Shown: positions 6,351 to 63,511 of the stretch, in pieces | How the letters are laid out: every line of letters begins with the position of its first letter | Numbering within the stretch: the stretch's first letter is position 1 | NCBI GenBank assembly: GCA_000165345.1 | Contig: CM000430.1 | Location: forward strand, 96,001-160,000 | Length of the DNA stretch: 64,000 nucleotides | Direction of reading: 5' to 3' | Translations under genes and position numbers: made by a program | Notes under the pieces: generated by a model | Told to the model about the DNA's origin: nothing | Database searches by the model: none | What the model saw: only the letters and a program-made list of their open reading frames with translations

Positions 6351-6600
6351 TGACACCACTTATTACAAATATCGCTATTTACTCAACTCAATGTCACCAA
6401 AGGGACAACACTCTTAAAACTACCATAACGAAGCCATTCTTAACACCACCATAAAGACACTACTCTTAACACAACTCATAACATTACTATTAAAATCACT
6501 CCCAACTCTACTTCTACTCTATTACTATTCTCAGTTTTATACCCCAAAGCTAATTTCCTTTAGTCCCACTACCACTACCAAGAATTCCCGCCCATTTCTA

Positions 6601-6653
6601 TGCATGCATGGATTTTACAACTTACGTGTCAATTGACACGTAATTTGCATGCA
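6601..6653. promoter_or_regulatory. Motif cluster: TGCATGCATG, 18-nt perfect palindrome ACGTGTCAATTGACACGT (6624..6641), ACGTAAT, TGCATGCA
   Basis: Read directly from the sequence. TGCATGCA is one of the over-represented upstream motifs of Cryptosporidium genes (established knowledge). The cluster lies between the end of the Sfi1-like gene and the 3' end of the porin gene. Confidence 0.4.
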
Positions 6654-6734
6654 AAAATTATTAATTTATATTGAAAGAGAAGGAGAAAGGGAGGAAAAAA
6701 AGAGAGGAGGGAACAGAAAAAGACATAGTAGGAC

Positions 6735-6893
6735 AAGACAAAGTAAAGCGAGACAAAGCAAAGCAAGACGACAAAGCAAAGCAAGAAGACAAAGCAAAGC
6801 AAGACAAGGTAAAACTAGGCCAAGTTTATTTTAATTTTATCCGTATGCAATTATTATTACTGCTATTACTATTACTATTATTATTACTATTTT
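6735..6893 (+). repeat. Intergenic low-complexity repeats: (ACAAAGCAAAGCAAGA)n purine tract followed by (TTA/TAT)n
   Basis: Direct repeats are visible. The two track ORFs here (6649..6834, 6671..6895) are repeat artefacts. Confidence 0.7.
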
Positions 6894-6999
6894 GAAATTT
6901 TTAAATAATAGAGTAATACATATTGGGAGGTGAAATATTATAATTCTATTTATTTTATTCTCTTCTCTGAATGTAATATTCGTTTACTTGATTCTTAAT

Positions 7000-16035: not shown

Positions 16036-16067
<32 letters not shown>

Positions 16068-16298: not shown

Positions 16299-16981
16299 AT
16301 GGTAAGTTATCTACAGATCAAAATTTTCTAAAAAAATGATTAACGCTTTTCCATTAAAATATTTAGTCTATTATGACTTATAATGGTGGTGCCATTTTGG
16401 CAATGAAGGGAAAAGAGTGTGTTGCATTTGCAACAGATATGAGACTTGGATCTAATGGATACAGAACTATAAGTACTGATTTTGATAAAGTTATTAGACC
16501 AAGCTCAAAAACATTGATGGGATTTTCAGGTTTAGCTACTGATATTCACACTCTAACAAACTTAATCAAATTTAAAACAAACTTGTATCATTTAAGGGAA
16601 GAAAGAGAAATTGGTGTTAAAGCACTTAGCCATATGACAGCTTCAATATTATATAGTAAACGTTTCAGTCCATATTTTGTGGAACCAATTGTAGCAGGTC
16701 TTGATAATAATAATGTGCCTTTTATTGCTGGGTATGATCTTATTGGATGCTTATCAGTATGTAGCGAATTTGCAATTTCCGGAACCGCTGATAATCAACT
16801 TTTTGGTATCTGTGAATCATACTATAGACCTGATTTAGAACCTGATGAACTTATGGAAATCGTCTCACAATGTATGCTTTCCGGTATAGATAGAGATGCA
16901 TTTTCTGGATGGGGTTGCAAAGTTTATCTACTTACTCCTGAAAAGCTCGTCACCAAAACTTTAAAATCAAGAATGGATTAA
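16299..16981 (+). CDS. PSMB3: Proteasome subunit beta type-3, two exons: join(16299..16301,16367..16981), 65-nt intron
   Basis: The track ORF (16373..16981) begins MTYNGGAILAMKGKECVAFATD… The open frame continues 6 nt upstream to S-I, preceded by TTTAG. An ATG at 16299 is immediately followed by GTAAGTT. Splicing ATG|GTAAGT…ATTTAG|TCT ATT ATG ACT gives MSIMTYNGGAILAMKGKECVAF, which matches the human PSMB3 N-terminus [22 protein letters not shown]. The C-terminus (…TKTLKSRMD) also matches (…TRTLKARMD). Confidence 0.8.
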
Positions 16982-17484
16982 TTTCCTATTTCTTGATCCA
17001 CTTAATTGCTACTTTAATAATCAATTTTGTATTGATAATTAAATCCTTTTAATGGTTTTTACTTATCTACTTTAGTCTTCATTATTATTATTATTATCAT
17101 TTTTATTTTTATTACAACACTTCCATAGTAAGAAATTGAAGTAAACCAAGGTTAAATCTAGAGGATTAAGTCTAATCAACCATAATTGTTGAAATAAATT
17201 GAGAAATTTCTAGTAGAAGATAATAGGTTAAACAAAATGGGTATTTTGGTGTTACATCAAAAGCCCGCCATCACTTAAGTAAATCAGTTTCTATGCTATT
17301 GATATATTAATTTGTTTTACCTATAAAACTTGCCAATCTGTGCAAAAAAGTTTAAATATTAGCATTTATTTAAAGTAAATCTTTCCCATTACACTGTTTT
17401 ATCCTAGAACTACACTCTTTAATATCATTAGTCTAAAAACTTTAAAGAAAAAAATTTATAAACTAATATATTGTTGATTTGTTC

Positions 17485-17535
17485 ATGCATGCAAACTAAT
17501 GAAATTAGAACGATGACGTAATGGGCGCCAAAATT
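17485..17535. promoter_or_regulatory. CATGCATGCA … TGACGTAATGGGCGCCAAAATT promoter-type motif pair in a 3'-3' convergent spacer
   Basis: Sequence motifs. Both flanking genes (16299..16981 + and 17982..19700 -) end here, so no annotated gene is available to use the motifs. Confidence 0.35.
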
Positions 17536-17981
17536 CCAATTCGAGATTTTAAAATCTACATTAGATGTAATATTTATAGAATTTTTTTTTCTATAGTTGT
17601 TTTATATTTCATGATACACATACATACACACTGTAATTTTTTCTTTTTGAATTTTTCTCCAACTTATGGTATATTATTGATTAGACCTCACCCGGTCTCA
17701 CTCAATGTTCGAATAATCTCGGGAATAAATTAAATTTTCATTCCGGACTAAATTGAATTAAAATATAGAAATATGTTAGATTTACTAAAAGATATATCTA
17801 AAAAGATTAGATAGATTTAAAAAAAAAGATAAGGTGAGATTAATTTGTGATTCTTTTTTTTAAAATAATATTTATTGAAAACTAATTATTCTTGTAAATA
17901 TTTTTCATTACAACTTATAATGATCAAATAATATATTGCGCAAACAGTTCCCGCATTTTAGTCAAATGTGATATTTGGAAC

Positions 17982-19700
17982 TTAGGTAGCAAGCATTGCT
18001 TTATTTTCGGGAATATTTTCAGAATCTTTGGTTGGTATTGTGAGATTATAAATCTGATAAATTTCTCTGGAATCAATAATTGCCACAGCAGCAAGAGTAC
18101 AGATTGTAGCTACCCCACAAGTAAGCATTAATTTCCAGTAAAGTTTATAAACAATAGAATTATATTCTCTATTTTCATACTTTGCGAGCCTGATAATAGA
18201 ATCAATAACTATAATCAAGAATGATTGAATAACAAGAATCCCAAATTTCCACCCTCCTTGATAAGGTTGAAGAGCTTCTTTACTAGGCCAATAAATAAGC
18301 ATAATTCCATAAATTGAAATAGTTAAAGAAATTATTAGAATTATATTATAAAGAAAGGCCTTAGATGGATGAATAACATTTAGTACCGAAACAAAAATAT
18401 TGATTGGAAGAAGTTGTATCATTAATATATAGCTTACAATGACAATTTTTGGTTGAAAATAAGTTTCTGTACTGGTTGGAATCATAAATGGAGGAACCTT
18501 CCAAACCTGATAAGGGCCTGTTCTCCTTATAGCTGTAACAATTTGTTCTGATCCTCCAAAGTATTCAACAAAAAGATCCCAAAGCCATATATAGCATATA
18601 CTTTGATAAGTAGATTGTATTACATTAAACATTCCATATCCAATTGGAGCAATACACGAGAGGAATTGCATAAGTACAGTAATTGGGAAACTCAAAAATA
18701 TATATAAATATAGACTCACAATTTTTACAGGAAAGACAGTATTTGTAATATTTCTGACCTGTTCTCCACCTTTTCTAAGCTTGCGATATTTTCGAATAGA
18801 AAATCCAATAACCATAATTAAGCTAATAGTAATAAAAATCAGTGCAACTTTAACTTCTTGAAGTCCGTCTTTATTAAATGCTGTTTTAATATCCGGAAAT
18901 TTAGAGTCCAACTCTGATTCTATTAGAGAAAACTTTGTATTTTCTACTGATCTTCTTGAATCTAAGTTAGATCCTATTCCATTTAATTCCACTTGGCTTG
19001 ATACTTGTCCAACTTTACCAACCTGAATTTTTTGTGGAGATATCTTTTGACTATTAGATTTTTGTGAATCCATTTGGGTTTGGGATGGTTTTGAAGAAGG
19101 TGTTGATGAAGATGGCTGAGATGAAGAATTCCGAGGTGGAGGAGCTGGTTGGGATGGAGACTGCTGTGGAGGAGACTGTTTTGGGGGAGACTGCTGCGAA
19201 GAGGACTGCTGCGAAGAGGACTGCTGCGAAGAGGATTGCTGAGGTGGAGGAGCTGGTTGGGATGAAGACTGCTTAGGTGGGGACTGCTGAGAAGAAGGCA
19301 TTGATGGAGCACTGGATGTCTGGCTCTGAGTGTTCCCTCCTTCTTTCGGCACTGAAGGAACTTGTATAACTTCTTTCGAATTTGGAGTTCCAGATCGTTC
19401 GTTTACACTAACTGAAACTATTGGAATATTAATTGGTGCGCTATCCTTGGATAAACCTGGCCCTAGTGTAGGAACTGGAGCAGGAGTAGGTTTAGGTGCA
19501 GGAGTAGGTGCAGGAGCAGGAATGGGTGCAGGAGCAGGAGTAGGCGCAGGCGTAGGAGCAGGAGTAGGCGCAGGAGTAGGCGCAGGAGTAGGCGCAGGAG
19601 TAGGCGCAGGAGCAGGAGCAGGAGCAGCCTGATTTGCGCTCGTGTTTGGAGCGGTGAGAGTTTGAGATGCGTCACTCTTATTGGGAGCCTCTCTAACCAT
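17982..19700 (-). CDS. Membrane protein: N-terminal Pro/Ala/Thr and Ser/Gln repeat region followed by a multi-pass transmembrane C-terminal domain
   Basis: ATG start at 19700. (PAPT)n is encoded by perfect 12-nt tandem repeats GCAGGAGTAGGC (~19478..19630 on the plus strand). (SSQQS)n is encoded by a 15-nt repeat (19187..19236). The C-terminal 280 aa contain at least six hydrophobic helices (…IFITISLIMVIGF…, …YILMIQLLPINIFVSVL…, …ILIISLTISIYGIMLIYW…). Confidence 0.5.
   Translation of the reverse strand: MVREAPNKSDASQTLTAPNTSANQAAPAPAPAPTPAPTPAPTPAPTPAPTPAPTPAPAPIPAPAPTPAPKPTPAPVPTLGPGLSKDSAPINIPIVSVSVNERSGTPNSKEVIQVPSVPKEGGNTQSQTSSAPSMPSSQQSPPKQSSSQPAPPPQQSSSQQSSSQQSSSQQSPPKQSPPQQSPSQPAPPPRNSSSQPSSSTPSSKPSQTQMDSQKSNSQKISPQKIQVGKVGQVSSQVELNGIGSNLDSRRSVENTKFSLIESELDSKFPDIKTAFNKDGLQEVKVALIFITISLIMVIGFSIRKYRKLRKGGEQVRNITNTVFPVKIVSLYLYIFLSFPITVLMQFLSCIAPIGYGMFNVIQSTYQSICYIWLWDLFVEYFGGSEQIVTAIRRTGPYQVWKVPPFMIPTSTETYFQPKIVIVSYILMIQLLPINIFVSVLNVIHPSKAFLYNIILIISLTISIYGIMLIYWPSKEALQPYQGGWKFGILVIQSFLIIVIDSIIRLAKYENREYNSIVYKLYWKLMLTCGVATICTLAAVAIIDSREIYQIYNLTIPTKDSENIPENKAMLAT
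19478..19630 (-). repeat. Perfect in-frame 12-nt tandem repeat array (GCAGGAGTAGGC)n encoding (APTP)n
   Basis: Direct repeats are visible. This is a candidate length-polymorphic minisatellite. Confidence 0.8.
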
Positions 19701-21479: not shown

Positions 21480-21570
21480 TCTGATTTATATTAAATCTTA
21501 TTTAAATATTTGTCTTCAATTTTTTTCTAATCGTAATATCAAGAATATTTGCTTTATTATCGTGCTTATT

Positions 21571-21595
21571 ACATGCATGTTTTGGCGCCAAATGT
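21571..21595. promoter_or_regulatory. ACATGCATG + perfect palindrome TTTGGCGCCAAA (E2F-like) upstream of the MON2-like gene
   Basis: Sequence motif. A second copy, TTGGCGCCAAATTT, lies at 21926..21939. Both are within 500 nt of the ATG at 22078. Confidence 0.45.
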
Positions 21596-22077
21596 ATTTT
21601 TAAATATTATATTTGATAATATATGGGGAATGCCAGCCTAATAAAAAAAACTGATTTATTGAATCAATGAAAGATAGCTGTTGAACAAACTAATTTTATA
21701 ACCGTCAACACTTTTAAATATACTTTAGTTACTGATAAAAAAAAAATTAGTTTGGTGAGATTTACTCATGAACATTTTGTAAAATGTCTTTGTTCCTTGA
21801 ACTCTTTATAAATCATAAGAAATGGTTTGACTTTATTTAAACTTTAAATTCTCATCTGAATATTTCAACTGTCTATGATATCACATCTATCTAATCAATT
21901 AATATTTCCAATACTGAAAAAAATGTTGGCGCCAAATTTCCAATAAATATTTAGAAGATTACGGAAACAAAACAAAAGCAAATCAAAAACAGAATTATTG
22001 CTGTAATTTAATGGTATGATACAATTAAAAGAGTTCTAACTGCTTCTGGAGTTGAATTATAATAGGAGGAGGCTGTG

Positions 22078-25000
22078 ATGTATAGCTTGGAAGCAGACCT
22101 AAAGAACAAAAGTGGGCTAATCAAAAAAAACATGGGAAAAGAAGGTCAATTTGAAGCGAAATTAAGGCCTAGCTGCCCAAATATAGAAGATGAATTAAGA
22201 GCAATTTGTATACCATGCAAGAACAGTAGTCTTAATTATATTAAGGTAATGTGTGAAAAGGCCTTGCTAAGTTTTAGACATTATAGAGATGTAGTATATA
22301 AGACGGATTATGATGAGAATGGTGAAAGATTTAAACAATTTCCTGTTACTGATATATGTTCAGTTTGTAGAGAGGCCATAATAGCATCAACAAAGAACTC
22401 AGATTCAATTCAATTATCAATATTAGGTATGAACTGTATACAACAAATACTAATACCAGGGTTACTAGATACTTCTCACAAAATAACATTATTAGCAGTG
22501 CTTAACGAAGTCACAATTAAAGTTTCTACAACTATTAAAATTAAATCTAAGCAAACTTCAAGTAATTACCATAGTAATCACTCAAGTTCAAACAATGATA
22601 AAGAACAAGTACTGCTCAAAGTTATACAAACTGTACTATTATTTCTGTCTCCAGAAATACTTGAATTTAATGAAGCTATGATCACACTAATTGTTAGCAT
22701 AGTTTCGACTCTATTTAACTTATCAGGCTACTATCAATTAATTCAGATGTCACAACTTGCACTCAGACAGTTAGTAAATATTTCATTAGATTATATTGAT
22801 TCAAACACAGCTATCGAAGAAGATAATAGGGAAGTTTTAGAAGTTGTTCCTCTCTTATTAATTAAAGATATATCAGTAATGATAGATAAGAATATTGTAG
22901 AAAATGTCAAATTAGTTTCAAATAATAAAAGTTCAAAAGATAATTTAACACCACTTTCCTTATTAAAAGGAGGGATAACTATTCCATCGGAAATATGTTT
23001 GGACTTATGGTATGAAATTCTTGATAAGAATATATCTAATAGAAGATCCTTATTGGAAAACAATGAAGACTTAAGAAGCCTAATTCATAATGTACTATTT
23101 CCAACTTTAACAAAATGTATACAAAATGCATGTTCAGATTTAAATCCAAAAATGTCTCAAAATATCCACGAATTTGTTATGTTTGCAAGATTTATTAGAC
23201 TGTTTATAAGGATTTTAGAATTTAACTCGAGTAAGAAACTACAAGGTCCGTTTATTAAGGATTGTATTTGTAATTCCCTAATGAGCTTCATTCAAGCAAT
23301 TTCTGATGGAAATTACTCAAATATTCCAAGCTGGTCACTGCAATGCATTCTTGAAATGTTGAGTGAATTGGTTCAAAACTCAGATATATTGATTATAATT
23401 GGAAATTATAATGTAAAAGTACAAAATAAAAAGAAGGAAGCAGATGAAGAACCAAAAATGACTAACATCCTAGAACTTATTATTTCAACAATCAATCAAA
23501 TTCTAGTTTCTTTAAATGATCAACTTGATATTCTTCATTCAGCTGAAAACACTTTAAATTTATCGGTACCGTCATTTCTAAATGAGAAGATTTCTCTTCC
23601 TTCAATTCTTTTACCTCAACATAACAATACCAGAATTGAATGTGGTTACTTCATTATTAGTTCGTCTAAAAAAGCCTCCGAAAAAAGCATGAGACTAATT
23701 GATATTATTATGGAAGATGATCGTATTTATCATATTTCAAAATATAATTTTGGCGGGAACCTGGCAAATTTGGGGGGCGGCGCACATTTGCATGCAGGCA
23801 ATATGCAAAGTTTGTCAAATTTATCATCAGTTGTATTAATATCTCTAAAACCAATAGAAATATCGCTTCTAGTTTTTGATATTATTTTGAACATTTCAAC
23901 ATGCTTAAATAAAATTTATATGAACCAAATAAATGGTGATAGAGAAAAAACGATAGAATTTGAGAAATTAGTCTTCAATATTTGGGATCAATTTTATATA
24001 TTAATAAAGCAATGCATGGATTACTACCTTTTGAGATATTATGTATATAGAATTATTACTTTCCTATTTATGATCTCAAATTTACCAGAATTTAAAGGGA
24101 AATTGAGCAATATTTTGGAGTTAATTTTTGAAGCATTACAGAAATATTATAAGAATAATCAAATTTTAGAATCTAGAATTCTCAGTGATACAATTATGTT
24201 GGAAAAATTATTCTCAATTTATAAATGTTTTCTATCTATTTCGTATCAATTCAGCGAATGTTTGGATGAAGTTTCTTGGCAATTGTTATTTAGATATATG
24301 GAGTATATAGATCGTATATTGGACATAGGTCTGGGGCCAATGGTAAAATCTAGTGAAATAAAATCTAAATCTACGATAGATGTTGGAGATATAGAAGAAC
24401 TTGATCAAAGCTTATTGAGCCTGAAATCTGAACATTATTCATCAATTGAAAATGGGGAGTCTACTGAGATGAACAATATAAAGGATAAAGACGAAAAGGT
24501 ACGAGACGGACAAATAATTAAAACTCTTATGGCAGAATCAACTATTTTAAGAGCATCTCATCAAGTATTTCTAAAAGATCATATCAAGAATATTTCAGAA
24601 AATACTATGAATTGTGTGATTAAAGGTATTTACAAAGAACTAAGTTATAACATGTACAAAGAAAACCTGGATATTCAAGTTTTTGACTATATGCTTAAAC
24701 AATTGAGCTCTATTATTCAATCAATATACGATAAAATGAGCTATAATCTGTTCATTCCAATATGGAATGACAAAATTATTCCTCTTTTATTGGAAACTAT
24801 CAAGCAAAACAATTATTGTCACACCGGTATTGCATGCGCGCAAAACCAAGATACATGCGATTTGCAAAATTGCATGCACACTAACAATGATTATCCACAT
24901 AAAAAAAATAATGACGTGGAGCTAAATAAAAATAAGAAAATAATCAGAAATAATGTTGAAAATGTTGAAATGTTTAATAGTGTAATGAATTTTTTATCAT

Positions 25001-39912: not shown

Positions 39913-40000
39913 ATACTCTTTTAATCTATTTTGAAGAATTATCTTCCCATGTTTAACTAAATTATTACTTCAATTCAACTAAACATATATTTTATACAAC

Positions 40001-40090
40001 CCGCACCAACTCCATGAAATAATTGACTTCGCATGCACCATTGCAATGCATGCTCGAATTTTCGTGGAAGCGGGTCCAATGTGGACAAAT
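40001..40090. promoter_or_regulatory. Inverted-repeat motif cluster (ACCCGC…GCATGCA CCAT TGCAATGCATGC…GCGGGT) in a 3'-3' convergent spacer; a second GC island lies at 40330..40420
   Basis: Read from the sequence. The spacer separates the sugar-transporter 3' end (39912) from the CCT-alpha 3' end (40515). Confidence 0.35.
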
Positions 40091-40514
40091 ATATAATTAA
40101 TATATATAGTTTTACTATTTGCTTTCTTCTTAGTTATAGATTCGTTCTTTTACTAAATTTTCTTCCGAAAGTTTTAGCTGAAAACTGCTAATTAGTATCT
40201 CTAGAATGGCTTTCTATATAAGAACTACTAAAAATAAAAAAAAATAAAAAATTGTTATTCATTATATAAACTTAGTGACTGATATCGTAAATCTAGCTAA
40301 AGTATTTCACTGATAGCTATAAAAAATATATTTGCCGCCTTTTCGGTGTGGGGAGGGAAGTCGTTACATAGAAAAGGTCACCTGGCCCGTTGGGCGGGCT
40401 CTCGAATTAAATAGAGTAAAAGTCAACCAGAACATTTCTTCCCTCTTGAATCCTAATTTACTTGGTTGATATCAAAGAATGAAAAGGAATTAAACTTCAA
40501 ATGATGAAAGTTGT

Positions 40515-47749: not shown

Positions 47750-47853
47750 TTTATAGATCATATTTGCAAATACATAAGTATATAATTTAACTTGACTACC
47801 TTAGCTATTTCTTTTCCTTTCATCGTTTTTTTTATATTCTACAAGCAATGACT

Positions 47854-47893
47854 AATTGGCGCCAAAATCATTTCCATGCAATACTTCCCGCCT
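47854..47893. promoter_or_regulatory. AATTGGCGCCAAAAT (E2F-like palindrome) + CATGCAAT + TTCCCGCC in a 3'-3' convergent spacer; a second box, CACACGTAATATGCATGCAAG, lies at 48126..48146
   Basis: Sequence motifs lying between the Kir 3' end (47749) and the phosphoesterase 3' end (48651). Confidence 0.35.
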
Positions 47894-48650
47894 TGTTTTT
47901 TATTTTAAAAGTTATTCATTGCCTCCAAATTAATTTTGTAACTATTCTTTAGTATCTTTTTTTTAGTAAAAAATATAATCATTGTTATAGTTTTTTTGAA
48001 ATAAAAATCAACATTGTCAACCTAAGTGTTTTCTAGTACTTTTCAAACTTGTACATGTGTTATCCACCACAAGCTACTTCAACCCTTCAATCACTTTACT
48101 CACTATTTTGTGTGGGGGAAAAATGCACACGTAATATGCATGCAAGTTGTAAATAAATAGAGAAAAAAAACTAAAATTGTAGATAAAAATAATTAACTCT
48201 CTTATATTATCACTACAATCTACTGTGCATTATTCACCCCTTCTACATGAAGTATTTAATATACTATTTATAAATCTACATATCCCAAAATGAATAACTC
48301 CAAGAAAGTAATATCCAAAATAAGAAGAGTAAGTGCTTAGTACTTTAAAATGATTACCATTCTTCATCATTTAATTCATTTGCTTGTAACAATAGCCATT
48401 AGCAACTTAATGTATTAATTATTCTTCTTAAAAACTAATAATATTAGCATTCTTCAACTTATGGCACTTTTCCCTGATCTAATTTATGTCTGAATATCAT
48501 TTATACTATATAGTTCATTTTCTATTATCAATATTGATTATATTATTATGCCTCAACATAAACTCTCCTCTCTCTCGCCCCACTCAAAAAAAAAAACTAG
48601 TCTTAATGAAAGATTAAATTCTGACTCGAGATTATCACTTATTCTTCTTT

Positions 48651-62194: not shown

Positions 62195-63511
62195 ATTAGC
62201 AAACAGTAATAATTCAAACTATCTGAAACAAAATATTGTTTTTCCTCCTTCTCCCTTCCCTCTGTTTCCTTCTTTAAGAAAAAAAAACAATTTTCTACAT
62301 TCACTTTAAAGTAATTTCCTTGACTGATTTTCATTTGTTGAAAAAGCGCTTCCCGCCTTTTGTGTGCATTATTCATAATACAAAATTACTAATAGTAATA
62401 ATAATAATGTTTTCCTTTAATTTACATAATAGGGCAAAACATAGTTGAAATAAAAATAATGTAATACAAATATGTAATATATATATATATATATATATTT
62501 AGCTATATTCTGCGATTTCTTTAATTCAGTCTATTTTATACAAGTTTTACTCTCTTTCTCTTTCTTTTATCAAAAAAAGAAAAAAAAATTCAATTGATAT
62601 AAGTCATATTTAAGACAAAAACTGTTGTTGACTGTATTTAATCCTTTCTTATTTTTTATATTTTTCCCAAAAAAAAACTTCATGTGGAAATTGAAAGATA
62701 TGGGGGTAGTGTAACTTTCATTAATAAATTTAACATAGTAATTATGGATTAATTAAGAAATAATATTAATTACTTAGTAATAATTTAACCAAATTAAATA
62801 AGTAGATATATATTTATGTATTAATATAAATCAATAAATCTAACAATTAAGAATAATTAAGTATTTCTTGATTCATGCCAATATTTGTTTTCATCAATTT
62901 ATATATCACCAGAAATATCTCTTATTTCCTTTTCTTATATATATCATAATAACTTTATATTAACAAAAAAAAAAGAAAAAGAATACATTCACAAATATTT
63001 TCTATTATCATATAACATAAAATATCTGTAACGTTATATTAATATTTGATTTCGAAACCAAAAAAAGACTTGGAGCTTCGAAAATATTTTCCAAAGAAAA
63101 GGAATTAAAAAAAAAAATTAAACAACCTCTATTTTTTGACTCCATTTCATCCCACCATTAGTTAATCAAATTAGGAAAAAACTACACCATTATTTATCCT
63201 GAATTATTCCCTTTTCTCTTCTATTCAAAACCCAAATAAAACAAAGAACAAAAGGAAACAAAAAAAAAAAAAAATACCACGCAATTATAAATTTGGTTGC
63301 ATGCAAAATTATAATATTGACCCCCCTTCCTTTCTTTCTTTTTTCCCGCCTTTCCCCTTTATTTAACTTGAATAATTTAATATTAATTTTCATGTAAATT
63401 AATATTAAAATTAATATTGATATAAGAAAATCACAAAAATTTGATTAATTTAGAATTGCATTCTGTTAAAAAAAATGTTTCCCTTCTTTTTAACAATAAA
63501 AACTACTATTA

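What the first reader, a model, noticed from the sequence alone, without database searches (positions are those of the whole stretch)
16982..17981. Promoter-type motifs in a 3'-3' convergent spacer: candidate antisense/ncRNA promoter (1)
Both neighbours end here, yet the spacer holds CATGCATGCA and TGACGTAATGGGCGCCAAAATT (17485..17535). These are the same elements that sit upstream of most start codons in this window. Either an unannotated small or ncRNA gene lies here (no ORF of at least 60 aa), or these motifs drive antisense transcription into a neighbour's 3' end. Abundant 3'-initiated antisense lncRNAs have been reported for C. parvum. A GTTCGAAT T-loop-like string at ~17705 was checked but cannot be folded into a tRNA.
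Basis: partly seen in the sequence, partly recalled or inferred. Interest (0 to 1): 0.5.

Follow-up and report, generated by a model that had tools for sequence, protein, structure and literature searches.

The report
Conserved promoter-like module between convergent genes
A roughly 100-base block of known Cryptosporidium promoter motifs sits between two genes that both end there, and it has been kept in six species. It most likely starts an unannotated non-coding RNA, which is an already described kind of feature in this parasite.

Summary
The window is Cryptosporidium parvum chromosome 2. The spacer 16982-17981 lies between the 3' ends of proteasome beta-3 (+) and a 572-aa membrane protein (-).

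Two of them are far above chance: CATGCATGCA has 4 hits against 0.05 expected, and GGCGCCAAA has 8 against 0.03. TGACGT is not enriched.

The motifs belong to a ~100-bp block, 17484-17580: CATGCATGCAA, TGACGTAA, TGGGCGCCAAAATTCCAAT, TTTATAG.
- It is the conservation peak of an otherwise fast-evolving spacer.
- It scores like the E2F sites of real promoters at this locus.
- A profile built without C. canis finds it at the syntenic place in C. canis (E=2e-5), although the rest of that spacer does not align.
- C. felis, C. ryanae and C. muris have short spacers (about 357, 237 and 135 bp) without it.

There is no conserved ORF, no tRNA and no Rfam family.

An adjacent 8-bp hairpin pairs better on the - strand (96% against 88%), where every one-sided change gives G.U. 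This hints at a leftward RNA.

Best reading: an independent E2F/AP2-type promoter, probably bidirectional, that drives non-coding transcription. No transcript data could be reached, so transcription and its direction are inferred. This is a new member of a known kind, of modest interest.

The parts
17484..17580 (.). Conserved cis-regulatory block as a whole, from CATGCATGCAA to TTTATAGA
   Evidence: A profile HMM built from 5 species, without C. canis, matches C. canis L007 7010-7122 over HMM positions 15-113 with E=2.3e-5. It finds nothing in the C. felis, C. ryanae or C. muris loci. The block occurs once in the window.
17484..17494 (.). AP2_1-type palindromic motif CATGCATGCAA (GCATGC core at 17487-17492)
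   Evidence: A CATGCA core is kept in all six long-spacer species. PMC3734150 reports that the AP2 domain of cgd2_3490 binds [T/C]GCATGC[A/G].
17514..17521 (.). CRE-like TGACGTAA
   Evidence: ATGACGT is present in C. parvum, C. hominis, C. ubiquitum and C. canis, and lost in C. meleagridis and chipmunk genotype I. It is not enriched in the window. Its role is doubtful.
17522..17541 (+). E2F/DP-like site followed by a CCAAT-like box: TGGGCGCCAAAATTCCAATT
   Evidence: This is the most conserved 20-nt window of the spacer: 0.85 invariant in 4 species against a spacer mean of 0.40. It lies at the 98.6th percentile of 4072 intergenic windows. It resembles GGCGCCAAATTTCCAAT, which lies 150 nt upstream of the ATG of the gene at 22078 in the same orientation.
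17573..17580 (-). TTTATAGA, which reads TATAAA on the - strand; a TATA-like element
   Evidence: Kept in 5 of 6 species including C. canis. Function is inferred.
17582..17590 (+). T9 run
   Evidence: T-rich tracts lie to the right of the block in all species. Poly-T is a reported motif upstream of lncRNAs and in ATAC peaks.
17427..17467 (-). Inverted repeat or hairpin. The core helix 17427-17434 pairs with 17460-17467; the imperfect arms extend over 17 nt.
   Evidence: On the - strand 96.4% of cells pair, against 87.5% on the + strand. Three pairs carry compensatory changes, all in C. ubiquitum. All five one-sided changes give G.U on the - strand.
17365..17370 (-). AATAAA on the - strand; a possible poly(A) signal for a leftward RNA
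   Evidence: TTTATT is kept at this place in all 5 alignable species. This is weak evidence in AT-rich DNA.
17264..17269 (.). Second E2F-like core, CCCGCC
   Evidence: Present at spacer positions 261-284 in C. parvum, C. hominis, C. meleagridis, C. ubiquitum and chipmunk genotype I.
17948..17954 (.). Third E2F-like site, TTCCCGC, about 30 nt past the stop codon of the 572-aa gene
   Evidence: An E2F-like site lies at the equivalent place in C. hominis and C. meleagridis (TTCCCGCC), C. ubiquitum and C. canis (GGCGCC plus CCCGC), and C. felis (GCGGCGGG).

Best explanation
The middle of this 1-kb convergent spacer holds an independent RNA polymerase II promoter of the E2F/DP plus ApiAP2 type, and selection has maintained it.

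Proposed mechanism:
1. E2F/DP binds TGGGCGCCAAA.
2. An AP2 factor of the cgd2_3490 kind binds CATGCATGCA.
3. Together they hold open a nucleosome-free region of about 100 bp.
4. Non-coding transcription starts from that region, probably in both directions.

The leftward (- strand) product would begin just left of the GCATGC motif and carry the conserved hairpin (17467-17427) near its 5' end. It would either end after the conserved AATAAA (17370-17365), giving an RNA of roughly 110-140 nt, or run on as antisense into the proteasome beta-3 3' end. The rightward (+ strand) product would start after the TTTATAG and T-run (about 17600) and reach the 3' end of the 572-aa gene about 380 nt later, as an antisense lncRNA.

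Shown: the motifs, their enrichment, their conservation, the lack of coding potential and the strand asymmetry of the hairpin. Inferred: factor binding, open chromatin, initiation, and the direction and ends of the transcripts.
For: - Motifs are present and enriched.
- The E2F block is the top conserved window of the spacer, at the 98.6th percentile of all intergenic windows at the locus. E2F sites of the flanking real promoters score the same, 0.80-0.90.
- The spacer as a whole is the least conserved of the five intergenic regions (0.40 against 0.44-0.59). The constraint is therefore on the block, not on the body.
- The block is recovered in C. canis by a profile that never saw it (E=2.3e-5).
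- No frame shows coding-type conservation, and C. parvum differs from C. hominis by a 2-nt indel.
- There is no tRNA and no Rfam family.
- The hairpin pairs better on the - strand, with G.U-only one-sided changes.
- The E2F-CCAAT arrangement matches, in orientation, the promoter of the gene at 22078.
- Literature: E2F and AP2_1 are the top two motifs within 100 bp upstream of 396 C. parvum lncRNAs, and TGGGCGCCAAA is listed verbatim (PMC7840661). E2F is the dominant motif in ATAC peaks, and more than half of regulatory peaks are called bidirectional (bioRxiv 10.1101/2025.01.17.633476).
Against: - No transcript, TSS or chromatin evidence for this locus could be reached.
- Sixteen 13-15-mer probes, covering eight sites in both orientations across the spacer and both gene 3' ends, are absent from the stored ~80% of the Li et al. 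lncRNA FASTA. A positive control was found.
- The direction clues conflict. The hairpin, TATAAA and AATAAA point left; the E2F-CCAAT orientation and the T-runs point right.
- The hairpin evidence is thin. The stem is 8 bp, all compensatory changes come from one species, about 4 independent one-sided events give p of about 0.06, and chipmunk genotype I breaks two pairs.
- Conserved hexamers in 76% A+T DNA are weak evidence.
- The transcript bodies are poorly conserved and show no conserved fold.
Confidence: 0.6

Rival explanations
1. The conserved block is, or directly serves, a small structured ncRNA gene. This would be an intermediate-size ncRNA of the class found by sRNA-seq in C. parvum, with the hairpin as its functional core rather than a by-product of a lncRNA.
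For: - The hairpin pairs at 96% on the - strand with compensatory changes.
- AATAAA lies about 100 nt downstream on the same strand in all 5 alignable species.
- PMC9465071 reports 43 novel intergenic intermediate-size ncRNAs of 45-531 nt, conserved within the genus.
Against: - Rfam finds nothing in C. parvum or C. canis.
- The consensus fold of the 213-nt - strand region is weak, at -12.3 kcal/mol with a positive covariation term.
- Sliding alifold windows show only this one hairpin.
- Outside the block and the hairpin, sequence conservation is at or below the intergenic average.
Confidence: 0.15
2. The block is an E2F-bound element that does not act as a promoter. It could be a boundary or roadblock that separates the two converging transcription units and helps them terminate, or another chromatin or replication element.
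For: - It sits midway between two converging genes.
- All five long convergent spacers of the window carry such motifs, at about 3 times the density of promoter-bearing spacers. The two short ones carry none.
- The flanking sequence is poorly conserved.
Against: - No such function is described for these motifs in Cryptosporidium in the papers read.
- C. felis, C. ryanae and C. muris manage the same convergent pair with spacers of 135-357 bp and no block.
- The same motif pair is documented upstream of lncRNAs.
Confidence: 0.15
3. A small or spliced protein-coding gene has been missed in the spacer, and the block is its promoter.
For: - A 1-kb gene-free gap is long for this genome. The mean intergenic distance is 504 bp (PMC7840661).
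- A 70-aa ATG ORF exists at 17521-17733.
Against: - No gene is called here in any of the species annotations seen.
- tblastn of every stop-to-stop segment of 12 aa or more gives only frame-independent matches broken by stops.
- The 70-aa ORF is frameshifted in C. hominis and stopped in C. meleagridis.
- No start codon is conserved.
Confidence: 0.03
4. The motifs are chance or neutral sequence with no function.
For: - The motifs are short.
- TGACGT is not enriched.
- The spacer as a whole evolves fast.
Against: - Enrichment is 80- to 250-fold over shuffles.
- The block is a conservation peak equal to real promoter sites.
- It is recovered in C. canis at E=2.3e-5, in the same order and orientation.
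Confidence: 0.03

Closest known systems
Upstream regions of C. parvum lncRNAs (Li et al. 2021, PMC7840661)
   Same: - The same two motifs, E2F/DP1 and ApiAP2_1 (BGCATGCAH), lie within 100 bp of lncRNA starts.
- TGGGCGCCAAA is listed verbatim for two lncRNAs.
- lncRNAs are biased to the 3' ends of genes.
- lincRNAs are AT-rich.
   Different: - 309 of their 363 antisense RNAs lie head-to-head with a neighbouring mRNA, so they could share its promoter. Here both neighbours point inward, so the promoter would stand alone.
- E2F and AP2_1 occurred together at only 17 of their 396 lncRNAs.
- No lncRNA from this locus is in the stored part of their catalogue.
E2F-type mRNA promoters of C. parvum (Oberstaller et al. 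2013, PMC3734150; ATAC-seq peaks in Xiao et al. 2025)
   Same: - The E2F-like motif DTTGSCGCCH is present.
- Conservation equals that of the E2F sites upstream of the flanking genes.
- The E2F-CCAAT arrangement is nearly identical to the one 150 nt upstream of the ATG at 22078.
   Different: - No protein-coding gene lies downstream on either strand.
- Chromatin state is unknown.
Intermediate-size ncRNAs of C. parvum (Li et al. 2022, PMC9465071)
   Same: - Intergenic location.
- Conserved within the genus only.
- A size range of 70-200 nt would fit a leftward RNA running from about 17475 to about 17345.
   Different: - Only one short hairpin is supported here.
- No sRNA-seq evidence could be reached, because the paper's tables are not held.

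Membership tests
C. parvum E2F/ApiAP2-type Pol II promoter | E2F/DP-like motif ([C/G]GCGC[G/C], extended form DTTGSCGCCH) | tested here: met
   TGGGCGCCAAA lies at 17522-17532. The identical 11-mer is listed as a motif1 instance in Table S3 of PMC7840661.
C. parvum E2F/ApiAP2-type Pol II promoter | AP2_1 motif BGCATGCAH | tested here: met
   TCATGCATGCAA lies at 17483-17494.
C. parvum E2F/ApiAP2-type Pol II promoter | Purifying selection on the motifs comparable to that on known promoters | tested here: met
   The block scores 0.85 invariance, against 0.80-0.90 for E2F windows of the flanking real promoters. It is the top window of its spacer and is found in C. canis by a profile built without it.
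C. parvum E2F/ApiAP2-type Pol II promoter | A mapped transcription start within about 100 bp | not testable with these tools
   No RNA-seq, Iso-seq or CAGE data are reachable. Logan contigs L016-L021 are genomic: they retain the intron and end at repeats.
C. parvum E2F/ApiAP2-type Pol II promoter | Open chromatin (an ATAC-seq peak) | not testable with these tools
   The supplements of the ATAC-seq paper are not held.
C. parvum lncRNA (antisense or lincRNA) | No significant coding capacity | tested here: met
   No conserved ORF in any of six frames. The 70-aa ORF is broken in sister species.
C. parvum lncRNA (antisense or lincRNA) | A transcript longer than 200 nt detected, or listed in the published catalogue | tested here: inconclusive
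   Sixteen probes are absent from the stored ~80% of the 396-lncRNA FASTA, while the positive control was found. The 766-lncRNA CpBGF annotation could not be inspected.
tRNA or other Pol III gene | A cloverleaf with A and B boxes | tested here: not met
   ARAGORN finds no gene. GTTCGAAT at 17707-17714 is not conserved in C. ubiquitum or chipmunk genotype I.
Any Rfam family (snRNA, snoRNA, RNase P/MRP, SRP and others) | A covariance-model match at or near the gathering score | tested here: not met
   No match at gathering threshold. The best E-value hits are chance level: SAM-II at 15 bits (E=9) in C. parvum, and nothing above 20 bits in the C. canis spacer.
Protein-coding gene | An ORF whose frame and residues are kept across species | tested here: not met

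The most novel reading that the evidence does not exclude
The extra ~600-850 bp of spacer, with its promoter block, may be a lineage-specific gain. It would have arisen after C. felis split off, in the clade from C. canis to C. parvum and C. hominis. It would have created a new stand-alone non-coding transcription unit between two converging housekeeping genes. Its leftward product would be a small hairpin-bearing RNA kept for its structure. More broadly, stand-alone E2F/AP2 promoters would be what makes long convergent spacers long in this compact genome.
Probability: 0.2. Interest if true: 0.45.

Novelty: new member of a known kind. Interest (0 to 1): 0.3.

Why it matters
If transcription is confirmed, this is a clean example of a stand-alone non-coding promoter in C. 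parvum. It cannot be explained as the back side of a neighbouring mRNA promoter, which is the explanation offered for most antisense RNAs in this parasite.

It also gives a practical rule for annotation. In this window, long convergent spacers are about three times richer in E2F and GCATGC motifs than promoter-bearing spacers. They are therefore good places to look for missing ncRNA genes.

It does not change what is already known about how Cryptosporidium regulates genes.

Tried and rejected
- Rfam at gathering and E-value thresholds, on C. parvum and C. canis: only chance hits.
- ARAGORN: no tRNA.
- A coding gene: tblastn of all stop-to-stop segments against seven orthologous spacers showed no frame-specific conservation.
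- Transcript evidence from Logan assemblies: contigs L016-L021 are collinear with the genome. They keep the 65-nt intron of the proteasome gene and end at a (TA)n run and at a coding tandem repeat, so they are genomic DNA.
- Mapping gene identifiers: I first assumed that NCBI tag CPATCC_000899 equals CryptoDB CPATCC_0008990, and concluded that a nearby lncRNA (Cp_lnc_341) lay two genes away. This was wrong, because Cp_lnc_341 has no BLAST match anywhere in the window. I replaced it with sequence-probe searches of the catalogue.
- Strict local alignment of the C. parvum spacer against the C. canis spacer finds nothing significant. Only the profile search does.
- Base-composition skew as a direction clue: there is none in the AT-rich species. 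A mirrored skew appears only in C. canis.
- Sliding consensus folding: apart from the hairpin, no window stands out. The large z-scores come from shuffles that fold to about zero energy.
- Supplements of the sRNA, T2T and ATAC papers are not held.

Full report
**Identity of the window.** The ORF at 16373-16981 is 100% identical to C. parvum Iowa II proteasome beta-3 on a 985,969-bp contig, chromosome 2. The true start is an ATG at 16299, followed directly by a 65-nt intron. The - strand ORF at 17982-19700 encodes a 572-aa membrane protein with low-complexity repeats. Gene order is the same in nine Cryptosporidium species: mitochondrial carrier, proteasome beta-3, membrane protein, PQ-loop protein, a large protein.

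**Observation.** The quoted strings are at the quoted places.
- CATGCATGCA has 4 hits in the window against 0.05 expected. GGCGCCAAA has 8 against 0.03.
- TGACGT has 10 hits, half of them in coding sequence, so it is not a promoter-type motif here.
- E2F-like cores occur in about 10 of 15 promoter-bearing spacers. GCATGC occurs in only 4.
There is a 70-aa ATG ORF at 17521-17733. It is frameshifted in C. hominis and stopped in C. meleagridis.

**Comparative anatomy.** The spacer length differs sharply between species.

| Species | Spacer length (bp) |
|---|---|
| C. parvum | 1000 |
| C. hominis | 997 |
| C. meleagridis | 986 |
| chipmunk genotype I | 959 |
| C. ubiquitum | 955 |
| C. canis | 886 |
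| C. felis | about 357 (after correcting an over-extended gene model) |
| C. ryanae | 237 |
| C. muris | 135 |

No annotation places a gene in the spacer. Overall it is the least conserved of the five intergenic regions at the locus: 0.40 of positions are invariant in four species, against 0.44-0.59 elsewhere.

Within it, the window TGGGCGCCAAAATTCCAATT (17522-17541) is the peak at 0.85. That is the 98.6th percentile of 4072 intergenic 20-nt windows. E2F-containing windows of the real promoters on either side score 0.80-0.90.

The alignment shows an ordered block, CATGCA ... ATGACGT ... GGCG(C/G)C ... AATTCCAA ... TTTTAAA ... CTAGA ... CTTTATAG. A profile built from the five AT-rich species alone finds the C. 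canis copy at the syntenic position and in the same orientation (E=2.3e-5). The C. canis spacer is 44% G+C and otherwise does not align. The profile finds nothing in the 12.6-kb loci of C. felis, C. ryanae or C. muris. Identity of the neighbouring mitochondrial-carrier protein puts C. canis slightly closer to C. parvum (0.74) than C. felis is (0.71). That fits a single gain after C. felis split off, but one protein is a weak basis.

Two further E2F-like sites are kept at fixed places. CCCGCC lies at 17264. TTCCCGC lies at 17948, about 30 nt from the stop codon of the 572-aa gene; that site has an equivalent even in C. felis.

**What it is not.**
- No tRNA.
- No Rfam family in C. parvum or C. 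canis.
- No conserved ORF in any frame.
- No conserved fold to the right of the block.

**Hairpin.** Just left of the GCATGC motif lies an inverted repeat in which 17427-17434 pairs with 17460-17467.
- Read on the + strand, 87.5% of cells pair.
- Read on the - strand, 96.4% pair. All five one-sided changes are G.U there, whereas they are C.A mismatches on the + strand.
- Three pairs carry double changes, all in C. ubiquitum. Between 5 and 9 of 500 shuffles reach the observed values.
- About four independent one-sided events all favour the - strand, which gives p of about 0.06.
- C. canis has a different 7-bp inverted repeat at a similar place. That could be chance.

This is modest evidence for an RNA read leftward through 17467-17427.

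**Direction.**
- Clues for the - strand: the hairpin; TATAAA on the - strand (17578-17573), kept in 5 of 6 species; and AATAAA on the - strand (17370-17365), kept in 5 of 5.
- Clues for the + strand: GGCGCCAAAATTCCAAT closely matches GGCGCCAAATTTCCAAT, which lies 150 nt upstream of the ATG at 22078 and points at that gene. T-runs also follow the block on the + strand.
- C. canis shows mirrored GC and AT skew about the block. The AT-rich species show none.

I read this as a bidirectional promoter, but direction remains inferred.

**Literature.**
- Oberstaller et al. 2013 define E2F-like (DTTGSCGCCH) and AP2_1 (GCATGCA, bound by the AP2 domain of cgd2_3490) as the leading upstream motifs.
- Li et al. 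2021 find the same two motifs within 100 bp upstream of 396 lncRNAs. These lncRNAs are biased to gene 3' ends, and 309 of the 363 antisense RNAs lie head-to-head with a neighbouring mRNA. Their motif table lists TGGGCGCCAAA.
- Xiao et al. 2025 find E2F to be the dominant motif of ATAC peaks, with more than half of regulatory peaks bidirectional.
- The 2025 CpBGF annotation has 766 lncRNAs and covers 88.6% of the genome. This locus may therefore already be annotated, but I could not check.
- Sequence probes from the spacer and from both gene 3' ends are absent from the stored ~80% of the Li et al. lncRNA FASTA. A control probe was found.

**Verdict.**
The E2F-like block and the ordered block around it are under selection, in the manner of a promoter.
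- The non-coding reading holds. Transcription itself is unproven.
- The kind of feature is already described for C. parvum. What is less usual is that the promoter stands alone between two converging genes, and that it appears to be specific to one clade.
- Confidence that the block is a functional cis-element is about 0.85. Confidence that it works as a promoter of non-coding RNA is about 0.6.

Noticed in passing
window 6351-6999, 39913-40514, 47750-48650, 62195-63511: Including the spacer under study, every long (600 bp or more) convergent spacer in the window carries GCATGC together with E2F-like cores. One example is TTGGCGCCAAAA at 47856, TTCCCGCC at 47887 and GCATGCA at 48138. The two short convergent spacers (62 and 215 bp) carry none. 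Motif density is 3.2 per kb, against 1.1 per kb in promoter-bearing spacers (p=0.004). My gene list used ORFs of 100 aa or more, so small or spliced genes could sit in some of these spacers.
   Followed up: partly
window 21569-21592: A composite CATGCATG plus TTTTGGCGCCAAA lies about 100 nt past the stop of the PQ-loop gene and about 500 nt before the next ATG. It is conserved (0.80). A second E2F-CCAAT site at 21926 is nearer to that gene. The first may serve an antisense RNA of the PQ-loop gene.
   Followed up: no
window 16299-16372: The proteasome beta-3 gene starts at the ATG at 16299, followed at once by a 65-nt intron (GTAAGT...TTTAG). The 202-aa ORF from 16373 therefore lacks the first three residues, MSI.
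   Followed up: yes
L002 6661-6856 (C. felis): The C. felis proteasome beta-3 gene model (249 aa) runs past the conserved ...KARMD stop at about 6661. The true spacer is therefore about 357 bp, not 165 bp.
   Followed up: yes
window 19150-19300 and 18800-19650: The 572-aa gene holds coding tandem repeats (for example GGACTGCTGCGAAGA three times, and PAPT and SSSQQ runs). Product length varies among isolates and close species from 555 to 572 aa.
   Followed up: no
window 16037-16062: A (TA)n microsatellite lies in the proteasome / mitochondrial-carrier divergent spacer. Short-read assemblies break there.
   Followed up: no
L007 6610-7495 (C. canis): The C. canis spacer shows mirrored strand skew about the block. 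The left half has GC skew -0.15 and AT skew +0.28. The right half has GC skew +0.38 and AT skew -0.21. The pattern resembles the divergent promoter region upstream in the same locus. C. canis also has TTGTCCACATG (- strand, L007 6964-6974), which is motif5 of Li et al.
   Followed up: partly
window 17320-17329: CCTATAAAAC, a TATA-like string on the + strand, lies about 55 nt downstream of the CCCGCC site at 17264. It sits inside a conserved patch (17312-17331, 0.75 invariant). It could mark another start site.
   Followed up: no
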